The translations under genes were made by a program, and so were the position numbers. 64,000 bases of DNA from Nanobdellota archaeon (GTDB taxonomy: Archaea > Nanobdellota > Nanobdellia > Woesearchaeales > UBA11576), in NCBI GenBank assembly GCA_042576705.1, contig JBHPEY010000001.1, positions 1,045 to 65,044 on the forward strand, written 5' to 3'. Below the pieces are notes generated by a model, which saw only the letters and a program-made list of their open reading frames with translations, ran no database searches and was not told the DNA's origin. Positions 3,976 to 63,135 of this stretch are shown here, in pieces. Numbering within the stretch: the stretch's first letter is position 1; each line of letters starts with the position of its first letter.

Positions 3976-4716
3976 ATGTCAGAAGAGAATGATTTTACAC
4001 AAAAAGTCGTTGATGATATTGTGGAGAGCGTAAAAGAGACAACTGATTCTGCTCCGCCTAAGAACTTCGGAAAGCTCGTACCTGCCTTGATAGAGAAGGG
4101 AATTGAGTCTGTGAACCTGTCCATGTTTGACCAGCCGACACGTGAGCAGCTTTTGAACGAGGTAGGGGATGAATGTTTGCGTAAGGGAAAGATCAATCAG
4201 GCTGTAAAGGCTTTCATGTTCATAGGGAATAAGTCTAAGCTTTCTAAGATAGGTCAGAATTATGAGAATATCGGCCTTTTTTCTGACGCTGTCGACATGT
4301 ACGTGCTTGCAGAGGATAATGCTAATATCGCGCGCGTGGGTGAGAAATGCATGAGTGAGAGCAAGTTTGTCGATGCTATCAAGTCATTCAAGGCATTGAA
4401 TGATCGGCAGAAGCTGCTGCAGGTCGGTGAGGAGTGCATGAAAAGGGAGAAGTGGGACTCTGCGCTCGAGATATTCTCGTTTTTAGACAGCAAGGAGAAA
4501 TTGGTTGAGCTCGGTGACAAGTGCTTCAAGCATCCTTTCTTCAATTATGCGGGGAAGGCTTACCAGCTTGCTGGTGATTCTGAGAGGCTGACGAAATTGG
4601 GTGATGAATGCATCCGACAGGGGCTTGTCAAGACTGCTTTTGATATCTATACAGCAGCAGGGAACGAGACCATGGCACAGTTCATCAAGGAGAACTTCAT
4701 GAATAAAGGGCAGTAA
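3976..4716 (+). CDS. hypothetical helical-repeat protein
   Basis: It contains five to six tandem repeats of about 37 aa with a recurring L-x-x-[LV]-G-[DE]-[EK]-C core (IARVGEKCM, LLQVGEECM, LVELGDKCF, LTKLGDECI). I recognise no catalytic motif. Confidence 0.7.
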   Translation: MSEENDFTQKVVDDIVESVKETTDSAPPKNFGKLVPALIEKGIESVNLSMFDQPTREQLLNEVGDECLRKGKINQAVKAFMFIGNKSKLSKIGQNYENIGLFSDAVDMYVLAEDNANIARVGEKCMSESKFVDAIKSFKALNDRQKLLQVGEECMKREKWDSALEIFSFLDSKEKLVELGDKCFKHPFFNYAGKAYQLAGDSERLTKLGDECIRQGLVKTAFDIYTAAGNETMAQFIKENFMNKGQ

Positions 4717-4744
4717 TGAGATAATTTTGTTTTGCTTTTTCTTT

Positions 4745-4818
4745 GATTCTTGATTCAGCTTTGGTTTTAGATGTAGCGGTTAGTTTGACAATATGTGTAG
4801 TATTAGCACCAAAGCTGA
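4745..4818 (+). repeat. module-A hairpin element (solo copy)
   Basis: The left arm gattcttgattcagctttggt and right arm gcaccaaagctga form an inverted repeat of about 11 bp around a roughly 40-nt loop containing gtttgacaat. It starts 29 nt after the stop of the upstream + strand gene. The same module occurs at 9441, 41335 and 62830. Confidence 0.7.
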
Positions 4819-5029
4819 TCTATCGTCCAGCGGTTTGACATGCGCGAAACCTTTTTCAGGATTCTACGGCTTAATCAAATAAGAATAAGGCCGCAACATC
4901 CCCAATCAGGCTTGCGCATTGTGGCGACTCAAGAATTCTTCCCAAATTTCGAGCCACATATGAATCTACTGGGCATCGCATTCAGATATTTAGGTCGAAA
5001 TTTGTTTATTTATCAAAAGAAAAAGTTCT

Positions 5030-6061
5030 TCACTCATTCGAAAGCTTCTTCAGCTTCTTCTCCAGCGCGCCCATGACCTGCTTCAGCACTGACCTGTTCT
5101 TTGTCTCGTCGACACCGAACTTCTCGTAGATCTCTCGTGTCGTCAGTGATGCGCCTCCTGCGTACCAGTGGCCGCCGCCTGAGCCGAACAGCTCCTTTAT
5201 TATCTCACCTACATTGTTCGCTGCGCTTGAGCTCCTTCCTGATACATACCACTCCCGCTGTTTCGCTTCCTCTACCTTTGCCAGGATTATGCTCATTGCA
5301 CAGCCTTCGAAGCTGTTCAGGACATCTGCGAGCTGGGGGACCATGCCGGGCTTTGTCACCTTGGCCACTCCTACACGATATTTTCCCACTGTCTTCTCAT
5401 CCATCTTCCTCAGGATGTTCAGGATCTCAATCGGGTAGCGTTTTGATTCTATCTTGCTTATCTCATCGAGGTTTGCCAGCCTTGAGAGGAAGGGTGTGGC
5501 CCTGTGGTCTATCTCTAGGTCATTGCCTTTCAGGTAGCGTTTTGTGTCTACCCGCATCCCGTAGAGCATGAGCGTCGCCAGGCCTTTTTCGTTGTCTGTC
5601 AGTTCTACGCCCAGGTTCATCATGTGGTCAGTGACCAGTGCTATTGTCGATCCTGCCTGCCTGGTGTCGTAGAAACCTACCCTGTCCAGGTTAAAATTAG
5701 AGTCCTTTGTCGGGTGATGGTTTATCACTATCGCAGGATTTCCAGCTATAGGGTATGCGTTGGACCCTTCCGGGTAGACATCCACGAAAGCCAGGATCGA
5801 GTCATCATCTGTCTCCTCTGGCTTGTGGATGAGCTTCTTCAGGTCCAGGCTGTTGTAGAGTATGTTGTTCTGAGGATATCCCCAGTCCTGGTGGAACTCG
5901 CCGCACACTACTGCCTCCAATCCGAAATGCTTTGCGATGTGAGCAAGTCCGAAGGCGCTCCCTATCGAATCATAACAGAAACCGGTGTGGCCGACGATGT
6001 ATAGCTTCTTTTCGTGGCTCTTCAGGTTATTGAGCATGCTGGCGAGTTCTTCTGATTCCAT
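5030..6061 (-). CDS. DHH/DHHA1-family phosphoesterase (NrnA/RecJ-like)
   Basis: Motifs are GHTGFCYDSIGS, DVYPEG, INHHP (the DHH position) and C-terminal GGGHWYAGGAS (DHHA1 GGGH). The start is placed at the Met (MESEEL) about 27 nt from TTTATAAA at 6085-6092. Confidence 0.75.
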   Translation of the reverse strand: MESEELASMLNNLKSHEKKLYIVGHTGFCYDSIGSAFGLAHIAKHFGLEAVVCGEFHQDWGYPQNNILYNSLDLKKLIHKPEETDDDSILAFVDVYPEGSNAYPIAGNPAIVINHHPTKDSNFNLDRVGFYDTRQAGSTIALVTDHMMNLGVELTDNEKGLATLMLYGMRVDTKRYLKGNDLEIDHRATPFLSRLANLDEISKIESKRYPIEILNILRKMDEKTVGKYRVGVAKVTKPGMVPQLADVLNSFEGCAMSIILAKVEEAKQREWYVSGRSSSAANNVGEIIKELFGSGGGHWYAGGASLTTREIYEKFGVDETKNRSVLKQVMGALEKKLKKLSNE

Positions 6062-6153
6062 AAGAATCACGGCGCAGGGGGTGTTTATAAAACATCATCT
6101 GTGATTGTTTATCTTTTTAGAGTTTTAGAATGAGATTTTCTCTTTTTGGATTG

Positions 6154-9424: not shown

Positions 9425-9440
9425 TTTATTTTTCTTTTTT

Positions 9441-9734
9441 GATTCTTAATTCAGCTTTGGTTTCAGATGTAGATGTAGTCATGAAGACGGGGACAGAATG
9501 AGCACCAAAGCTGAGGTATCGTTCTGTAGTATTGGATGGAACAAGCCTGGTTGGGACGCGGTCACTACGCTGCGCTTCGTTCTGAGGTTAACAATCCCTG
9601 CGGGATTCTTAACAGACGCAGCTGCTTTATCTGAATTTATTTAGGCAGCAGCATAAGTAAAATAAACGATATAGGGAAAAAGGCCTTCGGCCTGAACGAA
9701 TGACAGACAGTCTTAGAACCTGAGTTCGTGGTGG
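9441..9734 (+). repeat. composite intergenic element (module A + GCTGC hairpin + module C)
   Basis: Module A arms lie at 9441-9461 and 9502-9514, followed by gtattggatgga-caagcctgg. A hairpin gctgctttat..ttaggcagcagc spans 9621-9652. Module C, aaacgatatagggaaaaaggccttcggcc..tgacagacagtcttagaacctgagttcgtggtgg, spans 9661-9734. The element begins 17 nt after the rpl15e stop. Confidence 0.8.
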
Positions 9735-9770
9735 TCTTGGACGCAGACTTCTTGGTCGCGACTAAATAAA

Positions 9771-10997
9771 TCATCTCTTCTCGCAGGTCAATTCGCCATA
9801 CTTCTTGAACTCCTTGATCACGCCGTCGACATGCGCTTCGCCTACGCGTATCAATGGCTTTGTCCCAGGATACATATCCATGTGATAGATGAAGTTCTCT
9901 GTCATCAGTCGGTTCCGCTCGTGGATTATGCCCATTGCACTGCCTGCTGTCTCGGCGAACCTGGTGAGAAGGGTGCTGTCTTTAGCTTTTGGATTCAGGT
10001 TCGCGCCCATGTGGCGCATCGAGGCGCCGATTATGTACATCATAGGCCCTTTTGTTATCGCGATGCCACCCATCACTGCTAATAGTGTGTTGCTTGCCTT
10101 TGATACGCCTTCCCTCCTGCCATCATCATACCTGCCCTCTATGTAGATGACTGGCAGGCCCTGCTTGTATGCGACCGTGCTGATGTCTGGCTCCTGCGCG
10201 CCCAGTCCCCAGATGAATGGAAGCAGTCCTGTGAACAGTATCTTCTCCTCGATGTTCGGCTGCTCGCTGGTGCCTTCGCTTAGGACCATATCGTTCTTTT
10301 CAGAATCCAGGATGCGCCTGGCAGCCTCTGTTGAGCTCTTGTTGTAGTAGTGCGCCTCGCCGAGGAGGGTGAACCTGTATCTCTGGTCTTTCCTCTTCAG
10401 CTCGCAGGATGTGGCTGTCACATTTACAGCTCCAGGGTTCTGGGTCTCCTTTGTCGCATTGTAATGCCCAAAACACAATGCACCTACAACTGCGTATGTC
10501 GAGAGGAAGATGCCCAGCTTTCTCGGCAGCCTCTTCAGCCCGCGCTTCAGCCTGGCAGGGATGTTCCTGAAGTAATCTACAAACCTCGAGGGTATTGACC
10601 TGAAATGGCCTGCAGTCCTCTTCTGCTCGGGTCTTCTGTCAGGCTGTATCTGCCGCTTCCTCTTTTCGTAGGCATATGAGACCATGTTTGTCGCGCAGCC
10701 TATGCCCAGCAGCCATGGCTGGACAAAAACCGCAGCCAGCTGCACAGGAAGGGTCATGTTTGTTGCGCAGTCGCTTATCACATCCTCAAGAAAGTTCTTT
10801 TTAGAAGGTTCTTTTTCTACAACATCATCTATGCTCGACGGGTCAGCGGGTTGGGATTCCTGCTCCCAGCGTCTTGCAGTCGGGATGATGAAAGGAAGCA
10901 CAGCCCTTTGCCCGAAGGAATAAATTGTGTGCTTGCCATAATGCCTGGGACCTTTCCTGCTGCCGCTGTCCTTATCACTACCTTTAGCGAGGTTCAT
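9771..10997 (-). CDS. hypothetical membrane-associated protein, possible TraB/Tiki-superfamily domain
   Basis: The central region is hydrophobic. The C-terminal domain has LLGEAHY and RVGEAHVDGV motifs reminiscent of the GxxH...GxxH pair in TraB/PrgY/Tiki proteins. TTTATTAAAT lies about 28 nt upstream of the ATG. Confidence 0.5.
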   Translation of the reverse strand: MNLAKGSDKDSGSRKGPRHYGKHTIYSFGQRAVLPFIIPTARRWEQESQPADPSSIDDVVEKEPSKKNFLEDVISDCATNMTLPVQLAAVFVQPWLLGIGCATNMVSYAYEKRKRQIQPDRRPEQKRTAGHFRSIPSRFVDYFRNIPARLKRGLKRLPRKLGIFLSTYAVVGALCFGHYNATKETQNPGAVNVTATSCELKRKDQRYRFTLLGEAHYYNKSSTEAARRILDSEKNDMVLSEGTSEQPNIEEKILFTGLLPFIWGLGAQEPDISTVAYKQGLPVIYIEGRYDDGRREGVSKASNTLLAVMGGIAITKGPMMYIIGASMRHMGANLNPKAKDSTLLTRFAETAGSAMGIIHERNRLMTENFIYHMDMYPGTKPLIRVGEAHVDGVIKEFKKYGELTCEKR

Positions 10998-12494: not shown

Positions 12495-13235
12495 ATGCGA
12501 TTATTGAATCCAGGCTTTACAGACAAGAAGGACTTTTTAGTATTCTGCGAAGTAGAAGATGCTGCGTTGAAGCTGCTTGAACGTGATCTTTCGAAGTCAA
12601 AGAAGGAATTGTATTATCATTCTGTGGGTCATACGCTTTCTGTGCTCAAGCATGCGTTGAAGTTCGGCAAGGCAGAGGGGCTGGAGTCCCGGAAGCTGTT
12701 GCTGCTTGCAGTGGCTGCGCTTTTCCATGATACCGGATATGGGGATGAGTATGAGAAGAACGAGTTCTGGGGGGCCAAGCGGGCCAAGCTGGTTCTGCCT
12801 AAGTATGGTTTCTCTTCGGAAGAGATTGAGACGATCAAGGATATCATCATGGCTACGCAGCTGCATGCTGACATGAAGGCGCGTCCGCGGAATCATCTTG
12901 AGAGCGTGATGTGCGATGCTGATCTTGTCAATGTGGGGTTTCCTACCAAGAAGTATGTTGAGATCAGTGAGAAGTTGAGGAAGGAGTTCGGTGTTGAGGA
13001 TGAGGTGATCTGGATCGAGAGCCAGTTGAAGTTCTTTGATGCTCATGAGTTCCATACAGAGTCTGCGCTTAAATGGGGGATGAAGCAGAAGGCGCGGAAT
13101 CGGAAGTTCTTGGAGAAGAGGTTGAAGAAGTTGAGGAAGGTTCGAGAGAAGGCTAAGGAGAAGGAAGAGAAGGAGGGTAAGGAAGAGGAAAAAGCTGAGA
13201 CTGAACCTGCTGAAAAAGAAAATCTTTCTAATTAA
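12495..13235 (+). CDS. HD-domain metal-dependent phosphohydrolase with K/E-rich tail
   Basis: YYHSVGHTLSVLKHAL...LLLLAVAALFHDTGY supplies the H...HD signature, with CDADLVNVG downstream. The C-terminal roughly 50 aa are lysine/glutamate-rich. Confidence 0.8.
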   Translation: MRLLNPGFTDKKDFLVFCEVEDAALKLLERDLSKSKKELYYHSVGHTLSVLKHALKFGKAEGLESRKLLLLAVAALFHDTGYGDEYEKNEFWGAKRAKLVLPKYGFSSEEIETIKDIIMATQLHADMKARPRNHLESVMCDADLVNVGFPTKKYVEISEKLRKEFGVEDEVIWIESQLKFFDAHEFHTESALKWGMKQKARNRKFLEKRLKKLRKVREKAKEKEEKEGKEEEKAETEPAEKENLSN

Positions 13236-13247
13236 TGAGCTACTTCT

Positions 13248-13429
13248 GGAGCAAAGCTGAGCCCTACTACGCTTTTTGCTGCGCAAAAAGCTCCGTTCGT
13301 CGCCAGGCTCGCCCACTATTGTTGTTTCTATAGGGCCTGTCCCCCCGGAGGGGCCGACCCCCGACGACGGCCTGTATTCATTTGTTTTAAGGGGCTCGCG
13401 GAGGGCGACGACGGTCTCAGCTTTGCTCC
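13248..13429. repeat. long imperfect palindromic element (MITE-like)
   Basis: Terminal inverted repeats are ggagcaaagctgag (13248-13261) and ctcagctttgctcc (13416-13429). Inner arms cgttcgtcgccaggctcgccc and gggctcgcggagggcgacgacgg also pair, around a GC-rich centre gggcctgtccccccggaggggcc. The element starts 13 nt after the HD gene stop. Confidence 0.65.
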
Positions 13430-13512
13430 TGGTGCTATTTGTGGAGGTGCTGTTTACTGTGCTTTAAAACCAAAGCAAAAACTTAAATACGATTAACTGT
13501 GGTGTTTACTGT

Positions 13513-22631: not shown

Positions 22632-22876
22632 ATTGCACCTTATCTAAATATCATCAGCCAAAAGAATTGTGATTTCATTTATAAAGGTTTTGGTTTATGA
22701 CTACTTGTTGGTAGTCATTTTCGTAATCTTTTTATATAAGAAATGCGTAATTATGGGCATTCCTGTATAAGGAAGCTCTGGTGAGAAGCATGATCCGGAT
22801 GTGAGGATACAGGGTACAACAAACCGTGTTGAGGGGTCGTTCAGGCCCTGATTTTTCTTTTTTATATCCTAAGCAG

Positions 22877-23851: not shown

Positions 23852-23929
23852 GGGGGTTGTTTTATGTTTTTGGTATATAAATGTTATTGCCTGATTGTAC
23901 ACAACAAGATATAGCAAATCTGAGGCCGC

Positions 23930-24044
23930 CGCTGCCCCTTTTGCGAAGCGTCTTTATACAAATTCATGAGGGCCGCCGGGGGGACGTCCCTTACGGGGAC
24001 GGCGGCCTTATGCGGTAATACATTAAGCGCTTCGCCTGGCAGCG
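23930..24044. repeat. GC-rich nested-helix element
   Basis: Three nested complementary pairs are present: cgctgcc (23930-36)/ggcagcg (24038-44), gcgaagcg (23943-50)/cgcttcgc (24028-35) and ggccgcc (23971-77)/ggcggcc (24001-07). An inner gtccc/gggac hairpin is also present. Confidence 0.5.
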
Positions 24045-24180
24045 CACGGAGGTTTTTGTGAAGCGTAGCGGAACAAAAACCGGAGCAGGCCTCGGATTTG
24101 CGTCCTGAAGAAGGAGTTTTCTGAATTCTTGTGCGGATCCTGTCGCTTTCAGTACAAAGCTTAAGACGACATCTTTGGAA

Positions 24181-24260
24181 AAAGGAACGATATAGGGGAA
24201 AAGGCCTGCGGCCAAAAACGATAGTCAGACAGTCTTAGAACTTGAGTGCTTGGTTGCAGC
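24181..24260 (+). repeat. module-C element (solo copy)
   Basis: aaaggaacgatataggggaaaaggcctgcggccaaaaacgatagtcagacagtcttagaacttgagtgcttggttgcagcg matches module C of the composite elements. Confidence 0.75.
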
Positions 24261-24288
24261 GGCCTGCTTCGTGGGAACAGCACCTGAG

Positions 24289-24510
24289 CTATCTGATTAT
24301 CCTCTCGATGATCCCGTGGCTATTACCTGTCGTTATCATCAATGCAGAGGAGAACGTGGCAATCATGTGCAGCTCTTTATGATAGGTGCCTGTCAGAAGA
24401 AATACCAACCACCAAACCAATAGTAGTGCACCTATCAATATCACTGCCTTGAATGCCTGTCCTGCTACCAACCCCCATTGGTAGCGTCTCACGTAGCTTG
24501 TTTCGGTCAT
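24289..24510 (-). CDS. possible small membrane protein
   Basis: This 73-aa ORF has one clear TM segment (AVILIGALLLVWWLVFLL). There is no homology evidence. Confidence 0.35.
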   Translation of the reverse strand: MTETSYVRRYQWGLVAGQAFKAVILIGALLLVWWLVFLLTGTYHKELHMIATFSSALMITTGNSHGIIERIIR

Positions 24511-24895
24511 AAAGAAAAGGATTCTGCTTGCACATAGAGGCTATGTGCAAGCAGGTCCAAACCACCCCCAAAGAGTATGAAAAAATTACACAACTTATCT
24601 TCTTTATGTGAGCATGAATGGGACCAAATTCGGTTCGAGGGGACCTCGAACCACCCCACCGTGCTTCTCATTTGACCTAAAACATCATAGGTGCATCTAG
24701 TATATAAAACTTCCGAATTTTCCCTCACTTCCGTAATTTCCTTTACTTGATTTGATGCTCTATACGGCTTTAGGTTGTGTTTTTGTGGTTTCGAAACCTT
24801 CACGAAATGAATGGGTATTTATAAATAGAAATTGAATTCAGTATAGGGATTTGGCTACTGTTTTAGGAGGTGTAACAAAAAGAAATTGGAAAACA

Positions 24896-24944
24896 ATGCA
24901 ACCGTTCGGTTGCAAGGTTGGCTGCGGTTCAAACCTTAGCCAAC
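24896..24944 (+). mobile_element. module-B two-hairpin mini-element (solo copy)
   Basis: The sequence is aatgcaaccgttcggttgcaaggttggctgcggttcaaaccttagccaac. Hairpin 1 is TGCAACC-gttc-GGTTGCA. Hairpin 2 is GTTGGCT...AGCCAAC with an inner GGT/ACC stem. The same unit occurs at 41493 and 62896. Confidence 0.6.
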
Positions 24945-24956
24945 TATTGAAAATAA

Positions 24957-25291: not shown

Positions 25292-25891
25292 TTATCTAGA
25301 ACTGTCGGCTTGTCTCTCAAGTTCAAGCTTCTTTGATATCGCCCCGGACTGTCCGGATTGATTGAAAGCATTGATTATCTCATCTGCAACTGCAGCGACG
25401 ATAGATTTCTTTGAATTGAACGCCTTCTGGCAGGCGCTTTGGGTCATGTATTTCATGGCCTGGTCTGTCCTTCTTTGAGGCGCGACCTCGACGGCCTTTG
25501 GATACTTTGCGCCGCCATACTCGATCGTGACTATCTCTTCCCGCGGAGCAGCGTTCTCTATTGCCTTGATCAGCACGAGAACAGGGTTCTGGTTGGTCTT
25601 CTTCTCCACAATCTCTAGCGCCTGTTCCATTATCTTGAAGACTGTGTTGCCCTTGCCAGTCGTGTGGCCTGAGCTGATTATGTGCTTCTTGGACTTGTGG
25701 CCGCAGTTCATCAATCGGTTCATGAACCTCTCGACTACGAATACGTGGATAGACTTGTGGAATCGGAACTTCGCAGAGCGTCCGCCTGTGTCCGGCACTA
25801 TCCTCGGTTCGAGGTTCATGACATTCTTCAGGCCAGGATCATCTATCTGGATCCCTTCCATGCTCCATCTGTTGAATACTAGAATTGACAT
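25292..25891 (-). CDS. rps7: 30S ribosomal protein S7 (uS7)
   Basis: The archaeal uS7 pattern is present: PDTGGRSAKFRFHKS, NRLMN..HKSKKH, AIENAAPREEIVTIEYGGAKYPKAVEVAPQRR and KKLELERQADSSR. Confidence 0.95.
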   Translation of the reverse strand: MSILVFNRWSMEGIQIDDPGLKNVMNLEPRIVPDTGGRSAKFRFHKSIHVFVVERFMNRLMNCGHKSKKHIISSGHTTGKGNTVFKIMEQALEIVEKKTNQNPVLVLIKAIENAAPREEIVTIEYGGAKYPKAVEVAPQRRTDQAMKYMTQSACQKAFNSKKSIVAAVADEIINAFNQSGQSGAISKKLELERQADSSR

Positions 25892-25893
25892 TT

Positions 25894-26331
25894 TTATTTC
25901 CTTGCTTTCTCCAATTTGCCTTTCAATAGGGCACTGAGTGATTGATCATTGACTTTCAGGACCTGCCATCTGACACCAGGGATGTCTCCTTTCGACCGTC
26001 CCATGTTGCCGCCGATGCATTCGATCACGACCTCGTCGTGCTCGTCAACAAGCTTTGTAGCGCCGTCTCCTGGCAGGAAAGCTGTTATCTGCTTGCCATT
26101 CTTGATCAGCTGGACCCTTGCGCATTTTCGCATGGCAGAGTTTGGCTGCTTTGCCTCGAGCTGCACTTTCTCAAGCACGATGCCTTTGGCCTGCGAAGCT
26201 CCAACAAGCGGGTCAGACTTCTTCTTGAGGTCCAATGCCTTACGGATGAACCATCTCTCGCTCCACCTACCTGTTTTACGCCTTTTGGCGTTTTTAACGC
26301 CTGCTCTGAGTCCATTTGCTTTGTTTCCCAT
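25894..26331 (-). CDS. rps12: 30S ribosomal protein S12 (uS12)
   Basis: The internal Met start gives [11 protein letters not shown]..., with [30 protein letters not shown] and [21 protein letters not shown] lies about 26 nt upstream. Confidence 0.95.
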
Positions 26332-26353
26332 ACTGTTGCGGAAAAAAAGGGTG

Positions 26354-26361
26354 TATATAAA
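26354..26361 (-). promoter_or_regulatory. TATA-box candidate for the rps12-rps7 operon
   Basis: The minus strand reads TTTATATA centred about 26 nt upstream of the rps12 ATG at 26331 (leaderless geometry). Confidence 0.5.
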
Positions 26362-26413
26362 GGTTCTGGTGCTTGTGCCTGGTTTCCTTATAAACATGAG
26401 AAATATGAGAATT

Positions 26414-31983: not shown

Positions 31984-32967
31984 TTAATTCTTGCAAGCAA
32001 TCTGCCTGTCCAGGTCCAGCTCCCTGTCCGAAACTGTACATGCGAACCCATGGGCGCTGCACTTCTTATAGAAATCACACACCTCGCTGTTGCCTGTCGG
32101 ATAATCAATAGCAAGCACGAACCTGCCGTCAGCCACTGCCTTGTCAAGATACCCTAGGACATAAGCTGTCTCTTCTTCATCCTGCCTGCTGTCATCATCA
32201 TACCAGGTGTCTTCTTTCCCGAACCCTACAATGATCTCAGCGTAACTAGGGTATGCGTAAAGCTCAGGAGAGTTCTGCGGCACGACAATGAACGACGGAT
32301 TGACCTTCTGTGCTTCCTGCCTGATTGATCTCACAAAATCAACCATCTCCTGCGCAGCAGAATCACGGCCGCGGTCTTCATAATATCCATAAGCGTCGAT
32401 GATGTCAAGGTAAACCCCATCATACCCTGCCTCTGCAATCTCTTCTGCCCTGTCGAGAATGATGTCCTGCCATCCCATGTCCCAGTACCTGACCTTGTAG
32501 TTCCCTTCCCATCCAGGGTTCTCGCTGTCGATGAATGAGGGACTGCCCGGCTTCCAGGAGTCCTGCCAGTACTCCCTGTAATCCTCTGCCTCTCCGATGC
32601 TCAGGTATGACAGGATTGTCTTGCCGTCCTTCTTCAGGTCATTCAGCTCTTCCTCTGAAATGTCCGCGTCATCGATGTCAATGACAAGCACGTCGGCATC
32701 AACAGCCTTGAGCCCTGGGTATGTGGCCTCCTGCAACTGGTAATGGAAAGAACCGAAATCCTGACCCTGGCTTTTCCCGACGTCCATGACGCTTCCAGCG
32801 CTGTCTGTCTGCTTGTCGTAATCTGAGACATCGACAGGTTCGCTTATCTCTGTAGGTGTCTGTTGGGATGCTGCAGGGCGGGAGGCTGGTTCTCTTTCAG
32901 GAGTGTCTTCACAGCCTATCGTAAGGAATAATGCAAGAATCATGAGTATTATCGCCAGTTTTTTCAT
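31984..32967 (-). CDS. lipoprotein, MJ1477/TM1410-type putative glycoside hydrolase (GH114-like)
   Basis: The signal plus lipobox is MKKLAIILMILALFLTIGC. The core LSYLSIGEAEDYREYW...GNYKVRYWDMGWQDII...AGYDGVYLDIIDAY matches the endo-alpha-1,4-polygalactosaminidase-like TIM-barrel family pattern. Confidence 0.65.
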   Translation of the reverse strand: MKKLAIILMILALFLTIGCEDTPEREPASRPAASQQTPTEISEPVDVSDYDKQTDSAGSVMDVGKSQGQDFGSFHYQLQEATYPGLKAVDADVLVIDIDDADISEEELNDLKKDGKTILSYLSIGEAEDYREYWQDSWKPGSPSFIDSENPGWEGNYKVRYWDMGWQDIILDRAEEIAEAGYDGVYLDIIDAYGYYEDRGRDSAAQEMVDFVRSIRQEAQKVNPSFIVVPQNSPELYAYPSYAEIIVGFGKEDTWYDDDSRQDEEETAYVLGYLDKAVADGRFVLAIDYPTGNSEVCDFYKKCSAHGFACTVSDRELDLDRQIACKN

Positions 32968-33018
32968 GGGAACCTGTTGTGGTGTGTGATATATAAAACT
33001 TACCTGGATGGTATGAAT

Positions 33019-33110
33019 CGGTTGCGCTTTAGTATTTTAAACGATATAAGGGAAGGCCTGCGGCCAAAAGATTGACAGACAGTCTTAGACATCAACTTCG
33101 TGGTTTTGGC
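33019..33110 (+). repeat. module-C element (solo copy)
   Basis: The sequence is ggttgcgctttagtattttaaacgatataagggaaggcctgcggccaaaagattgacagacagtcttagacatcaacttcgtggtt. Confidence 0.75.
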
Positions 33111-33180
33111 GAGGCAGACCTCTTGGCGGGTGTTTGTCTTCTTCGATAGATTTTTAAATCTGTACTGCGCTTGTCAGTCC

Positions 33181-34694: not shown

Positions 34695-35282
34695 ATGAAC
34701 ATGAACAGAACAATAATATCCTTAACGGCTTTCTTTTCATTTCTTTTTCTGGCAGGATGCATGCAGGATGCGAATGTAATGCCGACACAGGAACACATGA
34801 GACTCACTGCATCCCAAAGCTCTAATGTTGCAGAGAAGTATGTGCAGACACTGCCTGAATTCATCAATCATAATGCCCACAACCTCAGGCTGATAAAGGT
34901 CACCCCTGCAGAATGTCCGAACTGCTGGGTGTTCGCATTTCATTTTGACGTAGATGATGACAAGCTTGATGAGAGTGTCGAGGGGTTCCGTGTAGAGATG
35001 ATGGTCCACCAGAACAGCGTGAGTGACGTGCATGTCAGCGAGATCAAGGATGAAGAAGGTGATGCACCAAAGGTCTCGTTCTGCAGGACGGATACTGACT
35101 GCATACCGCTGCCTTCAGACTGTCACCCTACAGAGTGCATCAACAAGAGGTTTGAGGGGGATTACCAGAAACCTGAGGTCTGTACCATGGTGTTCATGGA
35201 GGAGGCTGCATACAGCGCAGAGGACTGTGCGTGCGAGTCAGGGCAGTGCGTGAACAAGAACCTTGGGAAAGGCGCGGTCTGA
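34695..35282 (+). CDS. Cys-rich secreted lipoprotein, hypothetical
   Basis: The signal plus lipobox is MNMNRTIISLTAFFSFLFLAGC. The C-terminal half carries eight Cys residues. Confidence 0.6.
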   Translation: MNMNRTIISLTAFFSFLFLAGCMQDANVMPTQEHMRLTASQSSNVAEKYVQTLPEFINHNAHNLRLIKVTPAECPNCWVFAFHFDVDDDKLDESVEGFRVEMMVHQNSVSDVHVSEIKDEEGDAPKVSFCRTDTDCIPLPSDCHPTECINKRFEGDYQKPEVCTMVFMEEAAYSAEDCACESGQCVNKNLGKGAV

Positions 35283-35305
35283 TTCTGTCTGCGCATATTT
35301 TGATG

Positions 35306-35435
35306 GGTTGCGCTTCAGTAAAATAAACGATATACAGAAAAAGGGCCTGCGGCCAATAACTTTAGCCAGACAGTCTCAGCGAATCAGACTTCGTGGTTTA
35401 TCCAGACGTCTTAGACATTGGGTTCGTGGTGGCTA
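35306..35435 (+). repeat. module-C element with duplicated tail
   Basis: The head is gggttgcgcttcagtaaaataaacgatatacagaaaaagggcctgcggcc. Two tail copies follow: cagacagtctcag..cttcgtggtt and cagacgtcttagac..gttcgtggtgg. Confidence 0.7.
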
Positions 35436-35455: not shown

Positions 35456-36532
35456 TTATTCTATCTCTGCTGCCTGCCTGGAATAGATTATGTCAAGGGC
35501 AGAGTATGACTTTGTCAGGATTATCTTGACAATGGAATATACTGCTATCCCCAGGACGAGGCCTATCGCACCGAATATCTGGGCACCCATCAATGTGACA
35601 AGGATGACTATGAGCGGGTGCTCGTTGACAAGCTTGGGAAGAAGGACTGGCTGGGTGAAGACATTGTCGACTATCTGGGCTATTATTATGACACCCAGTG
35701 CAAGAGCTGCTGTGCGGAAGTCCAGGAGCAGGTAGGAAAGGATGACAGGCGATGCTGCGCCGAGAAGAGGCCCTATGTATGGGACTATGTTGAACATGCC
35801 TGCGAGAAGACCCATCGTGATAGGGAATTTCACGCCGAGTATGAAGAATCCTGTTGTGCAGATGCCTGCGACCAAGAGCGATTGGATGACCTTTGCGGTT
35901 ATGAAGTTCTCGATTGAGCGGTTGATATCATACACCATGGAAAGGACTGCCTCGAAATAGCGGTTCGGGACGAAGTTTATTATCTTCCTTACCAGTTTTT
36001 CCCTGTCCTTTATGAGGAGGACAGTTATTATAGGGACTATTATGAGCGAGCTCAACAGCATCGGAAGAAGGTTGGCGACCAATGATTTCAGCTGGTCCAG
36101 AAGATTGTTGAGCCTGTCCCTCACGTCCCCTGACTTGAATGTCATGTCTATGAACGGGATATAATACGCAATAACCTCCCCATCCTCTATGACCGGGCTG
36201 AAGACCTGCTGGTTCACGCGCTGCATGACCTCTGGCCAGTCCTGTGAGACCGAGCTGATCTCTGCCTTGATGCTGGGTGTTATGAAGTAGATTGCGCCGA
36301 GGATTATTATCAGGAATCCCAGCAGAACCATTACAAGCGCGTAGTTCTTCTTCACCCCGTACCTGCCCAGTGATTTTATCGCTGGGTTGAGTATGTACAC
36401 TATCAGCAGCGCGATGAAGACATAACGGAAGACATCCATGAAATACCCTATGAGAATAAATCCCAGAAGGACAAGCATGATGACTACAAGCATGTTCAGC
36501 CATATCTTGTAGTTGGTGTTCAGGGTCCTCAT
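35456..36532 (-). CDS. AI-2E family transporter (PerM/UPF0118)
   Basis: This is a polytopic membrane protein with the family motif GMFNIVPYIGPLLGAASPVILSY. Its start ATG overlaps the stop of the upstream cNMP-binding gene (ATGA). Confidence 0.85.
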   Translation of the reverse strand: MRTLNTNYKIWLNMLVVIMLVLLGFILIGYFMDVFRYVFIALLIVYILNPAIKSLGRYGVKKNYALVMVLLGFLIIILGAIYFITPSIKAEISSVSQDWPEVMQRVNQQVFSPVIEDGEVIAYYIPFIDMTFKSGDVRDRLNNLLDQLKSLVANLLPMLLSSLIIVPIITVLLIKDREKLVRKIINFVPNRYFEAVLSMVYDINRSIENFITAKVIQSLLVAGICTTGFFILGVKFPITMGLLAGMFNIVPYIGPLLGAASPVILSYLLLDFRTAALALGVIIIAQIVDNVFTQPVLLPKLVNEHPLIVILVTLMGAQIFGAIGLVLGIAVYSIVKIILTKSYSALDIIYSRQAAEIE

Positions 36533-36981
36533 TTTCTTTTCGCAAACGTCTCGGTGACGATCCTCAGCAGGTTCTGGTAGACTGTCGAACACAGCCTCGG
36601 GTCGTCATTGAACAGCTTGAAAAGGGATTCCTTGAAGAAATAGCACAGGGTCGTATTGCCTTTTGTGATAGCATCAGTGGTCCTCTTCGAGTCCCTGATA
36701 AGGGCGAATTCACCGAAAGAGTCAAGCGGCGCGTAGGTCGTAAGGAGCTTGTCATTGTCCTTTATCTCCACCTCGCCCCTGAGCACTATGAACAGGCCAT
36801 AAGACGGCTCGCCTTTCCTGAAAAGAAGCTCCTTGTCATGGTAATGGCGTATGTAGCTGGACTTGATCAGCTTGCGGACCTGCCATCTTGACAGGTTCCT
36901 GAACAGGGCGATCTTCCTGAGCGAGTCAGACAGCCTCTGCTTCTTCTGCCTTATCAGATAGTCTTGGAGAGCCATTTTCAT
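36529..36981 (-). CDS. stand-alone cyclic-nucleotide-binding (CAP_ED) domain protein
   Basis: FRKGEPSYGLFIVLRGEVEIKDNDKLLTTYAPLDSFGEFALIRDSKRTTDAIT matches the cNMP-binding beta-roll pattern (G-E...G-x-v-x-v...FGE.al......R.a.a.a). Confidence 0.8.
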   Translation of the reverse strand: MKMALQDYLIRQKKQRLSDSLRKIALFRNLSRWQVRKLIKSSYIRHYHDKELLFRKGEPSYGLFIVLRGEVEIKDNDKLLTTYAPLDSFGEFALIRDSKRTTDAITKGNTTLCYFFKESLFKLFNDDPRLCSTVYQNLLRIVTETFAKRK

Positions 36982-41328: not shown

Positions 41329-41334
41329 TTTTTT

Positions 41335-41624
41335 GAATTCTTAATTCAGCTTTGGTATTTGTTGTAGAAGTTGGTTTGACAATAGATATTGTAGGAGCAC
41401 CAAAGCTGATCTGTCGTTTGGCGGTATTGGATGAGCCAAGCCTGGTGTGGGATTTTTTTGCTGCTTTAAGTGAATTTGATTAGGCAGCAGCCATTGCAAC
41501 CGTTCGGTTGCAGGGTTGTCTGCGGCTGACGCCTTAGCCAACTTTCGGTAAATGAACGATATAGGGAGGAGGGCCTTCGGCCAAATAGAATGACAGACAG
41601 TCTTAGAACCTGAGTTCTTGGGGG
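41335..41624 (+). repeat. composite intergenic element (A + GCTGC hairpin + inserted B + C)
   Basis: Module A arms lie at 41335-41356 and 41397-41409, followed by gtattggatgagccaagcctgg. The hairpin is gctgctttaag..ttaggcagcagc. Module B spans 41493-41542 and module C spans 41551-41624. The element starts 7 nt after the CYTH stop. Confidence 0.8.
41493..41542 (+). mobile_element. module-B two-hairpin mini-element (inside composite)
   Basis: The sequence attgcaaccgttcggttgcagggttgtctgcggctgacgccttagccaac lies between the GCTGC hairpin and module C. It is absent from that position in the copies at 9441 and 62830. Confidence 0.6.
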
Positions 41625-41644
41625 TGGCGGGTTATACAGAAAGC

Positions 41645-41676: not shown

Positions 41677-41836
41677 CCCTGCGTAGCATAATGGTGGTGC
41701 GTCCGGCTGTAGCTAATACAGCACCCGCAGACAAGGCACGTTGCCATGGAGGAAAGCGGGACAGCAGTCACCGGAAGGTTGCTGGTTCAAAACAGCGGAT
41801 CAGAAATGGTCTGTTGGGAGATTCCGGCCGCAGGGA
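41677..41836 (+). tRNA. tRNA-Tyr (anticodon GTA) with two introns (anticodon loop ~57 nt; T-loop ~31 nt)
   Basis: The acceptor is CCCTGCG/CGCAGGG with discriminator A, and the D arm is GCAT-AATGGTG-GTGC. The anticodon stem is TCCGG...CCGGA with loop CT-GTA-G[intron]A. The T stem is GCTGG/CCGGC enclosing TTCAAA[31 nt]T. Exons sum to 72 nt. Confidence 0.75.
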
Positions 41837-44564: not shown

Positions 44565-44593
44565 GTCCTTCGCATTCTTTTTCTGTGTTCGAG

Positions 44594-53534: not shown

Positions 53535-53868
53535 TTTTGTATCTCCTTGGAATGATACGTTACAAAACTCTCTTGTTATTGGGAACCTTTGTTCCTTAGA
53601 GGCGGCCATTTCTTTCAGCATTTTGGATGCTGCAAGCCTTGACATCGTTATGCTCTGCCAAGCGTTTGGCGCCTGAGGGTCTTCACGTTGAAACAGAATG
53701 AGTATAATGTGTTTACACCCTCTGTTTCGGCCTTCCAATTACTTATGTTTCTTAGAGTTGCTCGGTGGTTTATAAGGTTTTCGGTTTTTGTGGTGGTGCG
53801 AGCTGAAGCATAGCAAGGATGTATAGCACCAGATAGCATAATAACGCAAGGAGGGGCTGATTCATGAC

Positions 53869-54015
53869 CGTCCGTGCCCGCAGAGCAAGCTGCCGCCGTA
53901 GCGTAGCGAAGGTGGCTGCTTGCGTGGCCAGACGGAACTTTTGTGAGCGAAGCATTCTAAGCGGAGTACCGGCAGATGCGAAGCATCTGACTGGCTTGCC
54001 GAATCTTTGATTCGG
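53869..54015. repeat. cluster of GC-rich hairpins in a 700-nt ORF-free region
   Basis: A long hairpin pairs gcaagctgcc with ggctgcttgc and is flanked by ccgtc/gacgg. CAGATGC-gaa-GCATCTG spans 53973-53989. CCGAATC-ttt-GATTCGG spans 53999-54015. Confidence 0.5.
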
Positions 54016-54065
54016 GAAGAGAGGCATTACGCGGCCCTTCCGCCGCTTTTTGGGGATTTGATAGG

Positions 54066-54175
54066 GCGGCAACTTCAGTAAAAGGAACTATATCAGGAGA
54101 GTGGCCTGCGGCCTAAAACGATACGCAGATAGTCTTAGAACCTGACTGAGTGGTTGCAGCGACATGGTTCGTGGT
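54066..54175 (+). repeat. module-C element (solo copy)
   Basis: The sequence is gcggcaacttcagtaaaaggaactatatcaggagagtggcctgcggcctaaaacgatacgcagatagtcttagaacctgactgagtggttgcagcg. Confidence 0.7.
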
Positions 54176-54439
54176 TCTGATGGCTCGGGGCTTGATTGCT
54201 GCTGGCTGGGATCGTGATGGCTCAGTTCGTGATTGGCACGGTTTTTTGGTGGAGGCCAGACCCTCTGTAGCCCCTGATAACGCTGTTTTCATAGGTCTTA
54301 GCTGTATTAACAGAAACCTTTTTAAAGGACCAAATTTTAGGTGCGATATGGTCATTAAACCTTTCTACGGCAAATGAGTGCCAAATTGCAGAGTTAACAC
54401 GCGGTAGAGGGAGTACTGGCTTATTCAGCAAAAAAAGGA

Positions 54440-54591
54440 GCCCTGGTAGTGTAGTGGCCTATCATGAAGCCCTGTCGAGGCGTTATGGACAGCATATTAG
54501 CTGTTTCTATCGCCGCATAAAGGCTTCGACCCGGGTTCGACATAAAATGGGTGAAACAGCCCGTTTTCAAACGAAAATCCCGGCCAGGGCG
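54440..54591 (+). tRNA. tRNA-Asp (anticodon GTC) with two introns (anticodon loop ~43 nt; T-loop ~36 nt)
   Basis: The acceptor is GCCCTGG/CCAGGGC with discriminator G, and the D region GTGTAGTGGCCTATCAT is as in archaeal tRNA-Asp. The anticodon stem is AAGCC...GGCTT with CT-GTC. The T stem is CCGGG/CCCGG enclosing TTCGA[36 nt]AT. Exons sum to 73 nt. Confidence 0.8.
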
Positions 54592-62810: not shown

Positions 62811-62829
62811 TTGTGTGGTTTGATTTGTT

Positions 62830-63135
62830 GATTCTTAATTCAGCTTTGGTGTTGGTAGCTGATGTTAGTTTGACAATGGATGCATGATTCGCACCATTGC
62901 AACAGGTCTGTTGCAGGGTTGTCTGCGGCTAAAGCTTTAGCCAACCAAAGCTGATGTAACATTGGTCAGTATTGGATGGAGCAAGCCTGATTAGGGAATT
63001 TTTTGTTTTTGCTGCTTTATGTGGATTCGTTCAGGCAGCAGCGTCTGCTAAATGAACGATATAAGGAAGAAGGCCTGCGGCCAAAAAAGATACGCAGATA
63101 GTCTTAGAACTTGACATCGTGGTGTTGCGGCAGGA
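62830..63135 (+). repeat. composite intergenic element (A interrupted by B, + GCTGC hairpin + C)
   Basis: The module A left arm lies at 62830-62850. The right arm is split as gcacc[50-nt module B]caaagctga (62891-62954). gtattggatggagcaagcctga follows, then the hairpin gctgctttatg..caggcagcagc and module C aaatgaacgatataaggaagaaggcctgcggcc..cagatagtcttagaacttga. The element starts 20 nt after the nusA stop. Confidence 0.8.
62896..62945 (+). mobile_element. module-B two-hairpin mini-element nested inside module A
   Basis: The sequence attgcaacaggtctgttgcagggttgtctgcggctaaagctttagccaac interrupts the otherwise contiguous gcaccaaagctga arm seen in three other A copies. Confidence 0.6.

What the first reader, a model, noticed from the sequence alone, without database searches (positions are those of the whole stretch)
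9441..9734. Modular, orientation-locked family of structured intergenic elements at nine or more loci
A recurring set of sequence modules fills most of the larger intergenic gaps.

The modules are:
- Module A is (t)gattcttaattcagctttggt, then about 40 nt, then gcaccaaagctga. This is an inverted repeat of about 11 bp, with gtttgacaat in the loop of three copies.
- A conserved linker gtattggatgg-gcaagcctg-t-ggg follows, often ending in an oligo-T run.
- A hairpin gctgctttat...ttaggcagcagc comes next.
- Module C is aa(a/t)gaacgatata-gg-a-a-ggcct(t/g)cggcc...cagacagtcttagaac-tga...cgtggt, with a GGCC-N3-GGCC hairpin and the palindrome AGACAGTCT.

Full composites of about 290-305 nt lie at 9441-9734, 41335-41624 and 62830-63135. 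An A-only copy lies at 4745-4818. C-only copies lie at 24181, 33019, 35306 (with a duplicated tail) and 54066.

Two properties are unusual:
1. Every copy I found is in the same orientation on the + strand, regardless of the orientation of flanking genes.
2. All four A-containing copies begin 7-29 nt after the stop codon of a + strand gene: the 3976 gene, rpl15e, the CYTH gene and nusA.

Copies differ by an estimated 20-30%, so they are not recent duplicates.

There are no adjacent transposase or cas genes and no regular spacing. Candidate roles are 3'-end or terminator modules, a family of small RNAs, or a non-autonomous mobile element.
Basis: seen in the sequence. Interest (0 to 1): 0.7.

Follow-up and report, generated by a model that had tools for sequence, protein, structure and literature searches.

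The report
Mosaic hairpin repeats between archaeal genes
A small-genome (DPANN) archaeon carries a private family of short, hairpin-rich DNA modules that recombine like building blocks in its gene-free gaps, resembling the mosaic repeats of bacteria, with no relative in any database searched and no function yet shown.

Summary
Profile searches recover modules A (4 copies), L (3), H (5) and C (7), plus an unreported two-hairpin module D (3), at nine loci. All lie on the + strand, and no other hit comes close.

The window is from a DPANN archaeon (NCBI 'Nanoarchaeota archaeon'). The family matches nothing in Rfam and has no true match in the genome, metagenome, viral, plasmid or phage collections. 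Two relatives lack it.

The orientation claim is only partly right.
- A diverged A-L unit lies on the - strand, right after the stop codon of a - strand gene. A-L therefore follows its upstream gene (5/5) rather than the + strand.
- A related rod-like family, G, occurs in both orientations.
- Only C, H and D remain strand-locked. Their independent loci are few (p about 0.06).

Other features:
- The H and D hairpins show compensatory changes and invariant G·U pairs, which form only on the + strand.
- D is a clean 51-nt insertion found in three different contexts.
- Conservation is strongly block-wise.
- The window encodes no transposase.

Best reading: a lineage-specific mosaic of small, probably once-mobile repeats, akin to BIME, BOX, PATE and SMR elements, lodged at gene 3' ends and probably transcribed. 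The mechanism is unproven.

The parts
9435..9759 (+). Composite 1. Order: A (9435-9530; stem 9451-9461/9504-9514), L (9527-9558), a copy-specific 60-nt insert with its own hairpin (9559-9617), H (9618-9654), C (9656-9739), partial tail repeat (9734-9759). It lies between rpl15e (+) and the - strand gene 9771-10997, a convergent pair.
41330..41629 (+). Composite 2. Order: A (41330-41425), L (41422-41455, ending in T7), H (41456-41492), D inserted between H and C (41491-41543), C (41547-41629). It lies between the CYTH gene (+) and a two-intron tRNA gene (+).
62825..63129 (+). Composite 3. A (62825-62965) carries D (62894-62944) inserted at the foot of its 3' arm. Then L (62967-63000, followed by T6 and T5 runs), H (63007-63044) and C (63046-63129). 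It lies between nusA (+) and the DUF7670 gene (-), a convergent pair.
4739..4866 (+). A with a degraded L (stem 4755-4765/4808-4818; T5 run at about 4856). The conserved block starts 25 nt after the stop of + gene 3976-4716.
4895..5029 (-). A'-L', a diverged A-L unit on the - strand directly after the stop of - gene 5030-6070. Parts: T-run plus TTTTGAT (5012-5018), hairpin 4943-5004 (10-bp perfect stem CAAATTTCGA/TCGAAATTTG, 42-nt loop), 28-nt linker, L-like GCAAGCCTGATTGGGGATG (4897-4915).
   Evidence: (I5)
24138..24288 (+). H (24138-24175), C (24178-24261) and a tail that ends at the stop of the - strand ORF 24289-24510. It is preceded by TTTTCTGAATTCTTG (24118-24132), which resembles the 5' block of A.
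24894..24945 (+). Solo D module (two hairpins) between two - strand genes.
   Evidence: (D14)
33017..33130 (+). C without H, with one tail repeat, followed by a T8 run. It lies between the promoter of - gene 31984-32967 and the MazG gene (+), a divergent pair.
35298..35433 (+). C without H, preceded directly by TTTTGAT (35298-35304), with a duplicated tail (35400-35433). It starts about 20 nt after the stop of + ORF 34695-35282 and ends about 22 nt before the stop of - gene 35456-36592.
54038..54250 (+). H (54038-54075), C (54077-54161) and three or four TTCGTGG-type tail repeats ending in a T6 run. Upstream is a unique structured GC-rich region (53790-54036); downstream are multi-intron tRNA genes.
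13246..13432 (+). G element, a rod-like structure closed by the 14-bp stem GGAGCAAAGCTGAG/CTCAGCTTTGCTCC. It starts 12 nt after the stop of + gene 12495-13235 and shares the 9-mer TCAGCTTTG with the A arms.
   Evidence: (I4)
23916..24116 (-). Second G element in the opposite orientation, 65-73% identical to the first, immediately left of H+C at 24138.

Best explanation
This is a lineage-restricted family of small mosaic interspersed repeats. It is built from at least five independently assorting, hairpin-containing modules (A, L, H, D, C) and a related rod-like element (G).

Most likely they are non-autonomous DNA elements that are, or once were, mobile or recombining. They have accumulated in the permissive gaps at gene 3' ends. 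Their hairpins are read from one strand only, as RNA or as transiently single-stranded DNA.

The A-L sub-unit behaves as a structure placed just after the stop codon and co-oriented with the upstream gene. It is probably transcribed as a 3' extension that ends at the T-run after L.

Shown: repetition, modular make-up, nested clean insertion of D, strand-specific pairing, block-wise conservation, and absence from the databases searched.

Inferred: mobility, transcription, and any effect on 3' end formation or RNA stability.
For: Dispersal and lineage restriction
- Nine dispersed loci, with a clean gap between true copies and noise.
- Pattern and profile searches found only chance hits: genome contigs, metagenome contigs and viral contigs; plasmids and phages; Rfam.
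- Relatives with 78-81% identical L15e lack every module. One of them carries an unrelated rod-like element, closed by an 18-bp stem, in the same gap after rpl15e.

Mosaicism
- Seven arrangements occur: A-L, A-L-insert-H-C, A-L-H-D-C, A(D)-L-H-C, H-C, C alone and D alone.
- Module similarity groupings disagree with one another.
- D is a precise 51-nt insertion. Removing it restores GCACCAAAGCTGA in A of 62830 and restores GCAG|CTTTCGGTAAAT in 41335, which matches the copies without D. No target duplication is seen.

Strand-specific structure
- H: 8 pairs, 92.5% of cells paired against 22-65% when the partner is slid, 2 compensatory pairs, and a U·G pair invariant in 5/5 copies.
- D: 18 pairs, 100% paired, 2 compensatory pairs, and one invariant G·U pair.
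- In every one of the 12 A, H and D copies the + strand fold is more stable than the - strand fold.
- The whole A stem is replaced in A' while the 42-nt loop is kept.

Position and boundaries
- A-L follows a stop codon in the gene's own orientation in 5/5 cases. T-runs precede A and follow L.
- Four of the nine loci lie between convergent genes.
- A shared left-boundary motif, (T)TTTGAT or TGAAT, appears at A, A', C 35306, and less exactly at 24181, 54066 and 33019.
Against: - No transposase, recombinase, HUH or reverse transcriptase gene lies in the 64 kb.
- No terminal inverted repeats and no target-site duplications are visible.
- Copies are old (48-85% identity). Conservation is strongly non-uniform: invariant runs of 13-20 nt, matched in 0 of 10,000 column permutations. 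That points to selection on sequence rather than neutral decay of selfish DNA.
- The covariation statistics are weak because there are so few copies (10/500 and 55/500 shuffles reach the observed scores).
- Whole-composite folds are not much more stable than shuffled sequence (z -0.9 to -2.6).
- The T-run in front of A could stop transcription before it reaches the element.
- There is no expression data and only one window of one genome.
Confidence: 0.5

Rival explanations
1. The modules are purely host-functional cis-acting RNA cassettes at transcript 3' ends. A-L, and the reverse complement of C for convergent - strand genes, would be structured 3' UTR, terminator or insulator modules that a dedicated protein recognises. 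They would have spread by duplication or gene conversion, not by transposition.
For: - A-L starts 6-38 nt after a stop codon and is co-oriented with that gene in 5/5 cases, including the - strand copy.
- T-runs precede A and follow L: T7 in 41335, T6 plus T5 in 62830, T5 in 4745.
- On the - strand the GGCC hairpin of C is flanked by T4-T6 runs in five of the seven copies. Four C tails end 0-50 nt from the stop of a - strand gene.
- Long invariant blocks, including unpaired ones, suggest protein recognition.
- G·U pairs are invariant.
Against: - C also lies in divergent and tandem gaps where it terminates nothing (33019, 54066, 41335).
- D sits inside other modules at different places.
- Nothing is conserved at the orthologous rpl15e gap in relatives.
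- Hairpins are not required for archaeal termination (my background knowledge, not tested here).
Confidence: 0.2
2. The elements are IS200/IS605-type non-autonomous elements (PATE-like). They would be moved as single-stranded DNA by a Y1 HUH transposase encoded elsewhere and inserted 3' of a TTGAT-like target on the lagging-strand template. The C end might retain an omega-RNA-like scaffold. This would explain the strand lock by replication direction.
For: - There are no terminal inverted repeats and no target duplication (D insertion and boundaries).
- TTGAT or TGAAT lies at the left boundary of A, A', 35306, 54066, 24181 and 33019.
- C, H and D all lie on the G-rich strand of a window with almost uniformly positive GC skew. 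If this archaeon shows the usual skew, that strand is the lagging-strand template.
- The hairpins tolerate G·T only on that strand.
- Core-deleted, terminal-only forms, heterogeneous PATEs, and small repeats inserted into their palindromes are described for Haloquadratum (PMC3119063).
Against: - The palindromes near the two ends do not resemble each other: the A stem is 11 bp with a 42-nt loop, the other is GGCC-N3-GGCC.
- The conserved C sequence runs more than 50 nt past its hairpin.
- The sequence 5' of the A hairpin shows no complementarity to TTGAT of the kind seen in IS608 (inspection).
- C-only forms lack any left-end hairpin.
- A' and one G copy lie on the other strand.
- No tnpA or tnpB lies in the window, and Rfam reports no omega-RNA or IS605-type match.
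- TTTTGAT itself is not enriched in the window (13 observed, 14.6 expected).
Confidence: 0.15
3. The modules are a paralogous family of independently transcribed small RNA genes. Examples would be a C RNA driven by the internal AAA..AACGATATA box, or A-L as an RNA of about 125 nt ending at the T-run. Such RNAs might act in trans, for example by titrating an RNA-binding protein through the repeated UUCGUGG tail motifs.
For: - The GGCC hairpin loop varies as U(U/G)CG, which fits the UNCG tetraloop class on the + strand.
- T8 and T6 runs follow C at 33019 and 54066.
- One to four tail repeats end in TTCGTGG.
- G·U pairs are invariant.
- The conserved AACGATATA is preceded by an A-rich stretch, like a weak BRE/TATA element.
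Against: - AACGATATA is a poor match to the TTTATAAA-type boxes seen upstream of genes in this window. It would also place the start site downstream of the GGCC hairpin.
- A has no room for a promoter, being 6-28 nt from a stop codon.
- Most C copies have no downstream T-run.
- RNAalifold finds no well-supported structure in C beyond the GGCC hairpin.
- Neither C/D nor H/ACA boxes are conserved.
Confidence: 0.1
4. The elements are DNA-level polar sites. They would be arrays of short palindromes (GAATT-N3-AATTC, GGCC-N3-GGCC, AGAC-N-GTCT) bound by dimeric proteins involved in chromosome organisation, replication-fork polarity or regulation.
For: - AGACAGTCT and GGCC-N3-GGCC have spacers too short, or only just long enough, for hairpin loops, and they are conserved as sequence.
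- The orientation is uniform on a window with uniform GC skew.
Against: - The H and D stems keep pairing through compensatory changes and G·U pairs, which duplex DNA sites do not need.
- AGACAGTCT is AGATAGTCT in two copies.
- Elements of about 300 nt with optional modules are unlike known polar sites.
Confidence: 0.05

Closest known systems
BOX elements of Streptococcus (boxA-boxB(n)-boxC) and E. coli BIMEs
   Same: - Small, interspersed and strictly intergenic.
- Built from modules that can be absent or repeated.
- Predicted to fold as stem-loops when transcribed.
- Over-represented between convergent genes.
- Found inserted into one another.
- Often have 3' end or terminator-like effects (PMC3049150).
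   Different: - No terminal inverted repeats between the first and last module, and no target duplication seen.
- Archaeal host.
- One-strand bias for C, H and D.
- The A-L sub-unit is tied to the stop codon of its upstream gene.
- No sequence similarity.
PATEs (palindrome-associated transposable elements, IS200/IS605-derived) and SMR small mobile repeats of Haloquadratum walsbyi
   Same: - Archaeal and transposase-free, with no inverted terminal repeats and no target duplication.
- Heterogeneous copies, including core-deleted and terminal-only forms.
- A short conserved oligonucleotide lies at the 5' boundary.
- SMRs of 80-110 bp insert into the palindromes of PATEs without duplication, as D does at the foot of the A and H hairpins (PMC3119063).
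   Different: - The palindromes near the two ends are unrelated to each other.
- No IS605-type transposon is available for comparison.
- D has no inverted terminal repeats.
- The conserved right part extends far beyond its hairpin.
REP sequences and RAYT-mobilised REPINs
   Same: Hairpin repeats at gene 3' ends, with proposed roles in mRNA stability and termination.
   Different: - REPs are 20-40 bp GC-rich palindromes with a GTAG or CGTC tag, usually in inverted pairs (abstract of PMC3733652).
- Here the hairpins are varied, lack that tag at the stem foot and are not paired in inverted orientation.
- No RAYT gene lies in the window.

Membership tests
Classical MITE | Terminal inverted repeats at the two ends of the element | tested here: not met
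   The inverted-repeat scan finds only internal hairpins (A arms, G arms, A'). Nothing pairs the left boundary (TTGATTCTTAAT) with the right end of C.
Classical MITE | Target-site duplication flanking the insertion | tested here: inconclusive
   The D insertions can be excised cleanly in silico without any duplication. The boundaries of the composites cannot be fixed without empty sites.
Classical MITE | Near-identical copies and a cognate transposase with the same ends in the genome | tested here: not met
   Pairwise identity is 48-85%. No transposase lies in the 64 kb. The rest of the genome was not available.
PATE / IS200-IS605-derived element | No inverted terminal repeats and no target duplication | tested here: met
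PATE / IS200-IS605-derived element | Palindromes near both ends that resemble each other or those of an IS605-type transposon | tested here: not met
   The A stem (TCAGCTTTGGT, 42-nt loop), H, D and the GGCC-N3-GGCC hairpin share no sequence. No IS605-type transposon was available for comparison.
PATE / IS200-IS605-derived element | A conserved 4-5 nt target oligonucleotide immediately 5' of the left end | tested here: inconclusive
   TTGAT lies at A (three copies), A', 35306 and 54066. TGAAT lies at 41335, 24181 and 33019. It cannot be told apart from element sequence, and TTTTGAT is not enriched overall.
PATE / IS200-IS605-derived element | Orientation tied to replication direction; tnpA or tnpB present in the genome | not testable with these tools
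   Only one window is available, and its GC skew is uniformly positive. The source assembly is not in the searchable collections.
REP/BIME (RAYT-associated) | A 20-40 bp GC-rich palindrome with a GTAG or CGTC tag at the stem foot, often in inverted pairs, with a RAYT gene | tested here: not met
   The hairpin sequences lack such tags at the stem foot. GTAG occurs only inside the A loops. All copies lie head to tail. No Y1 transposase gene was found in the window.
BOX-like modular repeat | Ordered modules with optional or repeated internal units, folding into stem-loops | tested here: met
   The order A-L-H-(D)-C is kept. Modules are optional and the C tail is repeated 1-4 times.
BOX-like modular repeat | Complementary terminal modules (boxA/boxC inverted repeats) and target duplication | tested here: not met
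   A and C are not complementary to each other.
Any curated RNA family (Rfam 15) | A covariance-model match at or near the gathering score | tested here: not met
   Only tRNA-Pro reaches its threshold. The best scores over the elements are 9-19 bits against thresholds of 35-428.
CRISPR array or integron attC array | Regularly spaced identical repeats, or cassette-bounding sites with adjacent cas or intI genes | tested here: not met
   The spacing runs from 2 to 20 kb. The genes in between are housekeeping genes (rpl15e, RNA polymerase, nusA). No cas or integrase gene was found.

The most novel reading that the evidence does not exclude
A-L and C could be a previously unknown class of structured archaeal RNA elements kept by purifying selection. 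A-L would be a dedicated 3' end cassette placed after the stop codon and recognised by a lineage-specific protein. C would be a strand-locked module with a conserved scaffold and a variable tail: either a guide-RNA-like remnant of an unknown single-strand DNA mobile system, or a protein-titrating RNA. In that case this DPANN lineage runs an RNA-based or ssDNA-based system with no described counterpart.
Probability: 0.15. Interest if true: 0.75.

Novelty: new variant of a known kind. Interest (0 to 1): 0.45.

Why it matters
DPANN archaea have small, streamlined genomes, yet about 3.5% of this window is taken up by one private family of structured repeats. That family occupies nearly all of the larger gaps that are truly non-coding.

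If the elements are mobile, they imply an unidentified way of moving them, without inverted repeats or target duplications, in a poorly known lineage.

If they are transcribed 3' modules, they would be a rare case of sequence-specific structured 3' end elements in archaea, where termination is thought to need only T-runs.

Either way, the family offers ready-made markers for strain typing and for finding rearrangement breakpoints in these uncultured organisms. One example is the broken nusA-S12 linkage next to composite 3.

Tried and rejected
- **Rfam.** Both the gathering and the permissive thresholds were run, on the whole window and on three sub-regions. Only noise came back.
- **Public collections.** Exact-pattern scans of genome contigs, metagenome contigs and viral contigs with C, A and D patterns gave only single chance matches. 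nhmmer showed these cover just the pattern itself.
- **Plasmids and phages.** blastn found nothing.
- **Source genome.** The window's own L15e is NCBI MFC1740913.1 on a 142,917-bp contig, but its DNA is not on record.
- **Relatives.** Contigs from relatives with 78% and 81% identical L15e contain none of the modules.
- **C/D-box or H/ACA small RNA.** The box sequences are not conserved across copies (inspection).
- **Bulge-helix-bulge intron reading of D.** No complementary flanks exist at the three insertion sites.
- **Small ORF in C.** An ATG followed by a 7-codon frame occurs in only 2 of 7 copies.
- **Promoter reading of AACGATATA.** It is a poor TATA match and is badly placed relative to the hairpin.
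- **The 408-aa neighbour (9771-10997) as a hidden TnpB.** It has no Pfam or NCBIfam hit, and I saw no obvious TnpB-like cysteine-rich (zinc-finger) motif when reading the translation.
- **IS608-style pairing between guide and cleavage site at the left end.** None is visible.
- **Closing helix in C (AACGA/TCGTT).** RNAalifold proposes one, but with only one compensatory case and several broken pairs.
- **Covariance model for A-L.** Not built, because MAFFT puts the A' stem one column out of register. A direct scan for stems after stop codons was used instead.
Full report
**What the window is.** Pfam finds L15e, split RpoB, RpoA'', L30e and a KH-type NusA. The window is therefore archaeal. The L15e protein is 100% identical to NCBI MFC1740913.1, annotated 'Nanoarchaeota archaeon', on a 142,917-bp contig. 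The next relatives are 81% and 78% identical and Woesearchaeota-like. G+C is 47.8%. GC skew is positive along almost the whole window. The source assembly is not in the searchable DNA collections.

**Check of the observation.**
- A three-way alignment of the composites shows long identical blocks separated by variable stretches.
- The repeat finder recovers every module.
- nhmmer profiles give A x4, L x3, H x5 and C x7, all on the + strand. A clean gap separates true copies (E <= 9e-6) from noise (E > 0.01), even with filters off.
- Pattern tests give 7 observed against 0 expected for the C core, and 3 against 0 for the A inverted repeat.
- GGCC-N3-GGCC occurs only in the C copies.
- Pairwise identities are 48-85%.

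(i) Module D is 51-52 nt and forms two hairpins. It occurs solo at 24894-24945, between H and C in composite 41335, and inside the loop of A at the foot of its 3' arm in composite 62830. Deleting it in silico restores the canonical host sequence in both composites, with no duplicated flank.

(ii) The copies at 24181 and 54066 carry H as well as C.

(iii) A diverged A-L unit lies on the - strand at 5029-4895, directly after the stop of the - strand gene 5030-6070. Its layout is colinear with canonical A-L:
- a T-run and TTTTGAT;
- a 10-bp perfect stem with a 42-nt loop, the same loop length as canonical A;
- a 28-nt linker;
- GCAAGCCTGATTGGGGATG, which matches the L of 62830 at 16 of 19 positions. 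The search found this one extra match against 0.04 expected by chance.

The convergent gap 4717-5029 therefore holds two A-L units facing each other, each behind its own gene.

(iv) A rod-like family G of about 190 nt occurs at 13246-13432 (+), 12 nt after a + strand stop codon, and at 23916-24116 (-).
- The two copies are 65-73% identical.
- Their folding z-scores are -4.8 and -5.7.
- Their closing stem carries a compensatory change.
- The closing stem of the + copy contains the same 9-mer as the A arms. All ten occurrences of TCAGCTTTG in the window lie in A or G arms, against 1.2 expected.

**Orientation.** A-L follows the stop codon of its upstream gene in that gene's orientation in 5 of 5 cases. 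G occurs on both strands. C (7/7), H (5/5) and D (3/3) are all on the + strand, and no reverse copy appears even at weak thresholds.
- Three C copies are physically linked to A-L.
- The independent C, H+C and D loci number five (24181, 24893, 33019, 35306, 54066). All five on + gives a two-sided p of about 0.06.
- The C loci sit in convergent (3), tandem (2) and divergent (2) gaps. Gene orientation therefore does not explain C.
- The + strand is the G-rich strand throughout. The lock could reflect replication direction, but one window cannot test that.

**Structure.**
- H is an 8-bp stem. 92.5% of cells pair, against 22-65% when the partner is slid. Two pairs change on both sides, and a U·G pair is invariant in all five copies.
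- D has 18 pairs, all kept, with two compensatory pairs and one invariant G·U pair.
- On the complementary strand those wobble pairs would be A·C mismatches. In all 12 A, H and D copies the + strand fold is more stable than the - strand fold. Part of this may come from the G+T richness of the + strand.
- The A stem never varies among the four canonical copies, but it is wholly replaced in A' while the loop length is kept.
- In C only the GGCC hairpin is solid. Its loop varies as U(U/G)CG, which fits an RNA UNCG loop on + and equally a DNA GNA triloop on -. The rest of C is conserved primary sequence (AACGATATA, CAGAYAGTCTTAGAAC, TTCGTGG), followed by 1-4 tail repeats.
- Whole composites are only modestly more stable than shuffled sequence (z -0.9 to -2.6).

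**Evolutionary pattern.** Conservation is strongly block-wise. Invariant runs reach 13 columns across the four A copies and 20 columns across the three composites, and no run that long appeared in 10,000 column permutations. Similarity groupings also differ between modules. For example, in the gapless repeat families C of 62830 is closest to the 24181 copy (88%), while its H is closest to 41335 (86%) (families D8 and D15). That indicates module shuffling rather than duplication of whole composites.

**Context and comparison.**
- No transposase, integrase, reverse transcriptase, HUH or cas gene lies in the window.
- No Rfam family matches.
- Scans of the genome, metagenome and viral collections return only chance hits. 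Plasmid and phage searches return none.
- Contigs from relatives lack the modules. The 81% relative has a gap of similar size after rpl15e. That gap holds an unrelated rod-like structure closed by an 18-bp stem, and a private repeat motif. Structured elements at gene 3' ends therefore look like a feature of the lineage, with rapid sequence turnover.

**Left boundary.** Every element type starts next to a T-rich stretch ending in TTGAT or TGAAT.
- The A copies have TTTGAT|TCTTAAT.
- A' has TTTTGAT.
- C-only 35306 has TTTTGAT|GGGTTGCGC.
- 24181 has TTTTCTGAAT|TCTTG, which matches the 41335 start at 14 of 17 positions.
- 54066 has TCTTTGAT|TC.
- 33019 has ATGAAT.

This motif could be a shared terminus, a target preference or a terminator remnant. 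TTTTGAT is not enriched overall (13 observed, 14.6 expected).

**Interpretation.** The closest analogues are the mosaic small repeats of bacteria and the transposase-free repeats of haloarchaea.
- BOX and BIME elements are modular, form stem-loops, are enriched between convergent genes and nest within one another (PMC3049150).
- PATEs have no inverted repeats and no duplications. They are heterogeneous and include core-deleted forms.
- SMRs insert into the palindromes of PATEs (PMC3119063).

Membership in any one of these families fails on at least one defining feature. There are no terminal inverted repeats, as a MITE or BOX element would need. The palindromes near the two ends are unrelated, unlike a PATE. 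There are no tagged palindromes, as a REP would need.

I therefore class this as a new variant of the general kind 'small mosaic interspersed repeats'. It was probably mobile or recombining at some time, and is now constrained in specific blocks. A-L behaves as a transcribed module placed after the stop codon. The replication-linked ssDNA model, the pure 3' end RNA model and the small-RNA gene model remain open. All three can be decided with the whole genome plus transcript data.

Noticed in passing
window 44585-45760 (+): A 391-aa protein with Pfam Sigma70_r1_2, r2 and r4 domains. This is a bacterial-type sigma-70 factor gene on an archaeal contig that also encodes archaeal RNA polymerase subunits and NusA.
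   Followed up: no
window 41677-41836 (+); 54440-54591 (+); about 54631 to beyond 54745 (+): Three tRNA genes, each interrupted by two or three introns, including non-canonical positions in the D- and T-loops. ARAGORN and Rfam miss them. After in-silico removal of two segments, ARAGORN calls tRNA-Asp(GTC) for the second gene. For the first gene it calls a tRNA, but the anticodon depends on the exact splice boundaries (unassigned, Leu-TAG, Tyr-GTA and Thr-TGT all occur; I read it by eye as Tyr-GTA). The first two end in T-runs.
   Followed up: partly
window 62382-62810 (nusA, +) and 25292-26397 (rps7 and rps12, -): In my experience nusA-rps12-rps7 linkage is usual in archaea. Here it is broken. 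nusA is followed by composite 3 and a convergent DUF7670 gene, while S12-S7 lie 36 kb away on the other strand. A repeat element therefore sits at a likely rearrangement breakpoint.
   Followed up: no
window 53790-54036: A unique GC-rich, highly structured region just upstream of H+C. The + strand folds at -95.9 kcal/mol against -75.9 for the - strand, with 14 G·U pairs and several GCGAAGC-type mini-hairpins. It has no Rfam match and no similarity to G. It may be an unknown RNA gene.
   Followed up: partly
window 41516-41538 against 41712-41734: The 5' half of the second D hairpin is 78% complementary over 23 nt (with a 10-nt exact core, TTGTCTGCGG) to part of the anticodon-loop intron of the tRNA gene 175 nt downstream on the same strand (I2). 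This could be chance or an inverted D fragment.
   Followed up: no
window 22680-22876 (+): Between two - strand genes there are TATA-like boxes, then about 115 nt, then a hairpin followed by GATTTTTCTTTTTT on the + strand. This looks like a small independent + strand RNA gene.
   Followed up: no
L036:1322-1651 and 2336-2440: The relative with 81% identical L15e has its own intergenic repeat motif (ACTTCGCTAGGCGG, three copies, all on the same strand). It also has an 18-bp long-range stem closing a rod-like structure of about 225 nt after rpl15e. Neither is related in sequence to the window's modules.
   Followed up: partly
window 24524-24554: A perfect 14-bp inverted repeat with a 3-nt spacer (CTGCTTGCACATAG/CTATGTGCAAGCAG) lies near the 3' end of the predicted - strand ORF 24507-24803 (I13). 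That ORF call may be wrong.
   Followed up: no
window 9559-9617: Composite 1 has a copy-specific 60-nt segment in place of the T-run after L. It contains the hairpin GTTAACAATCCC-TGC-GGGATTCTTAAC and has no other copy in the window.
   Followed up: no
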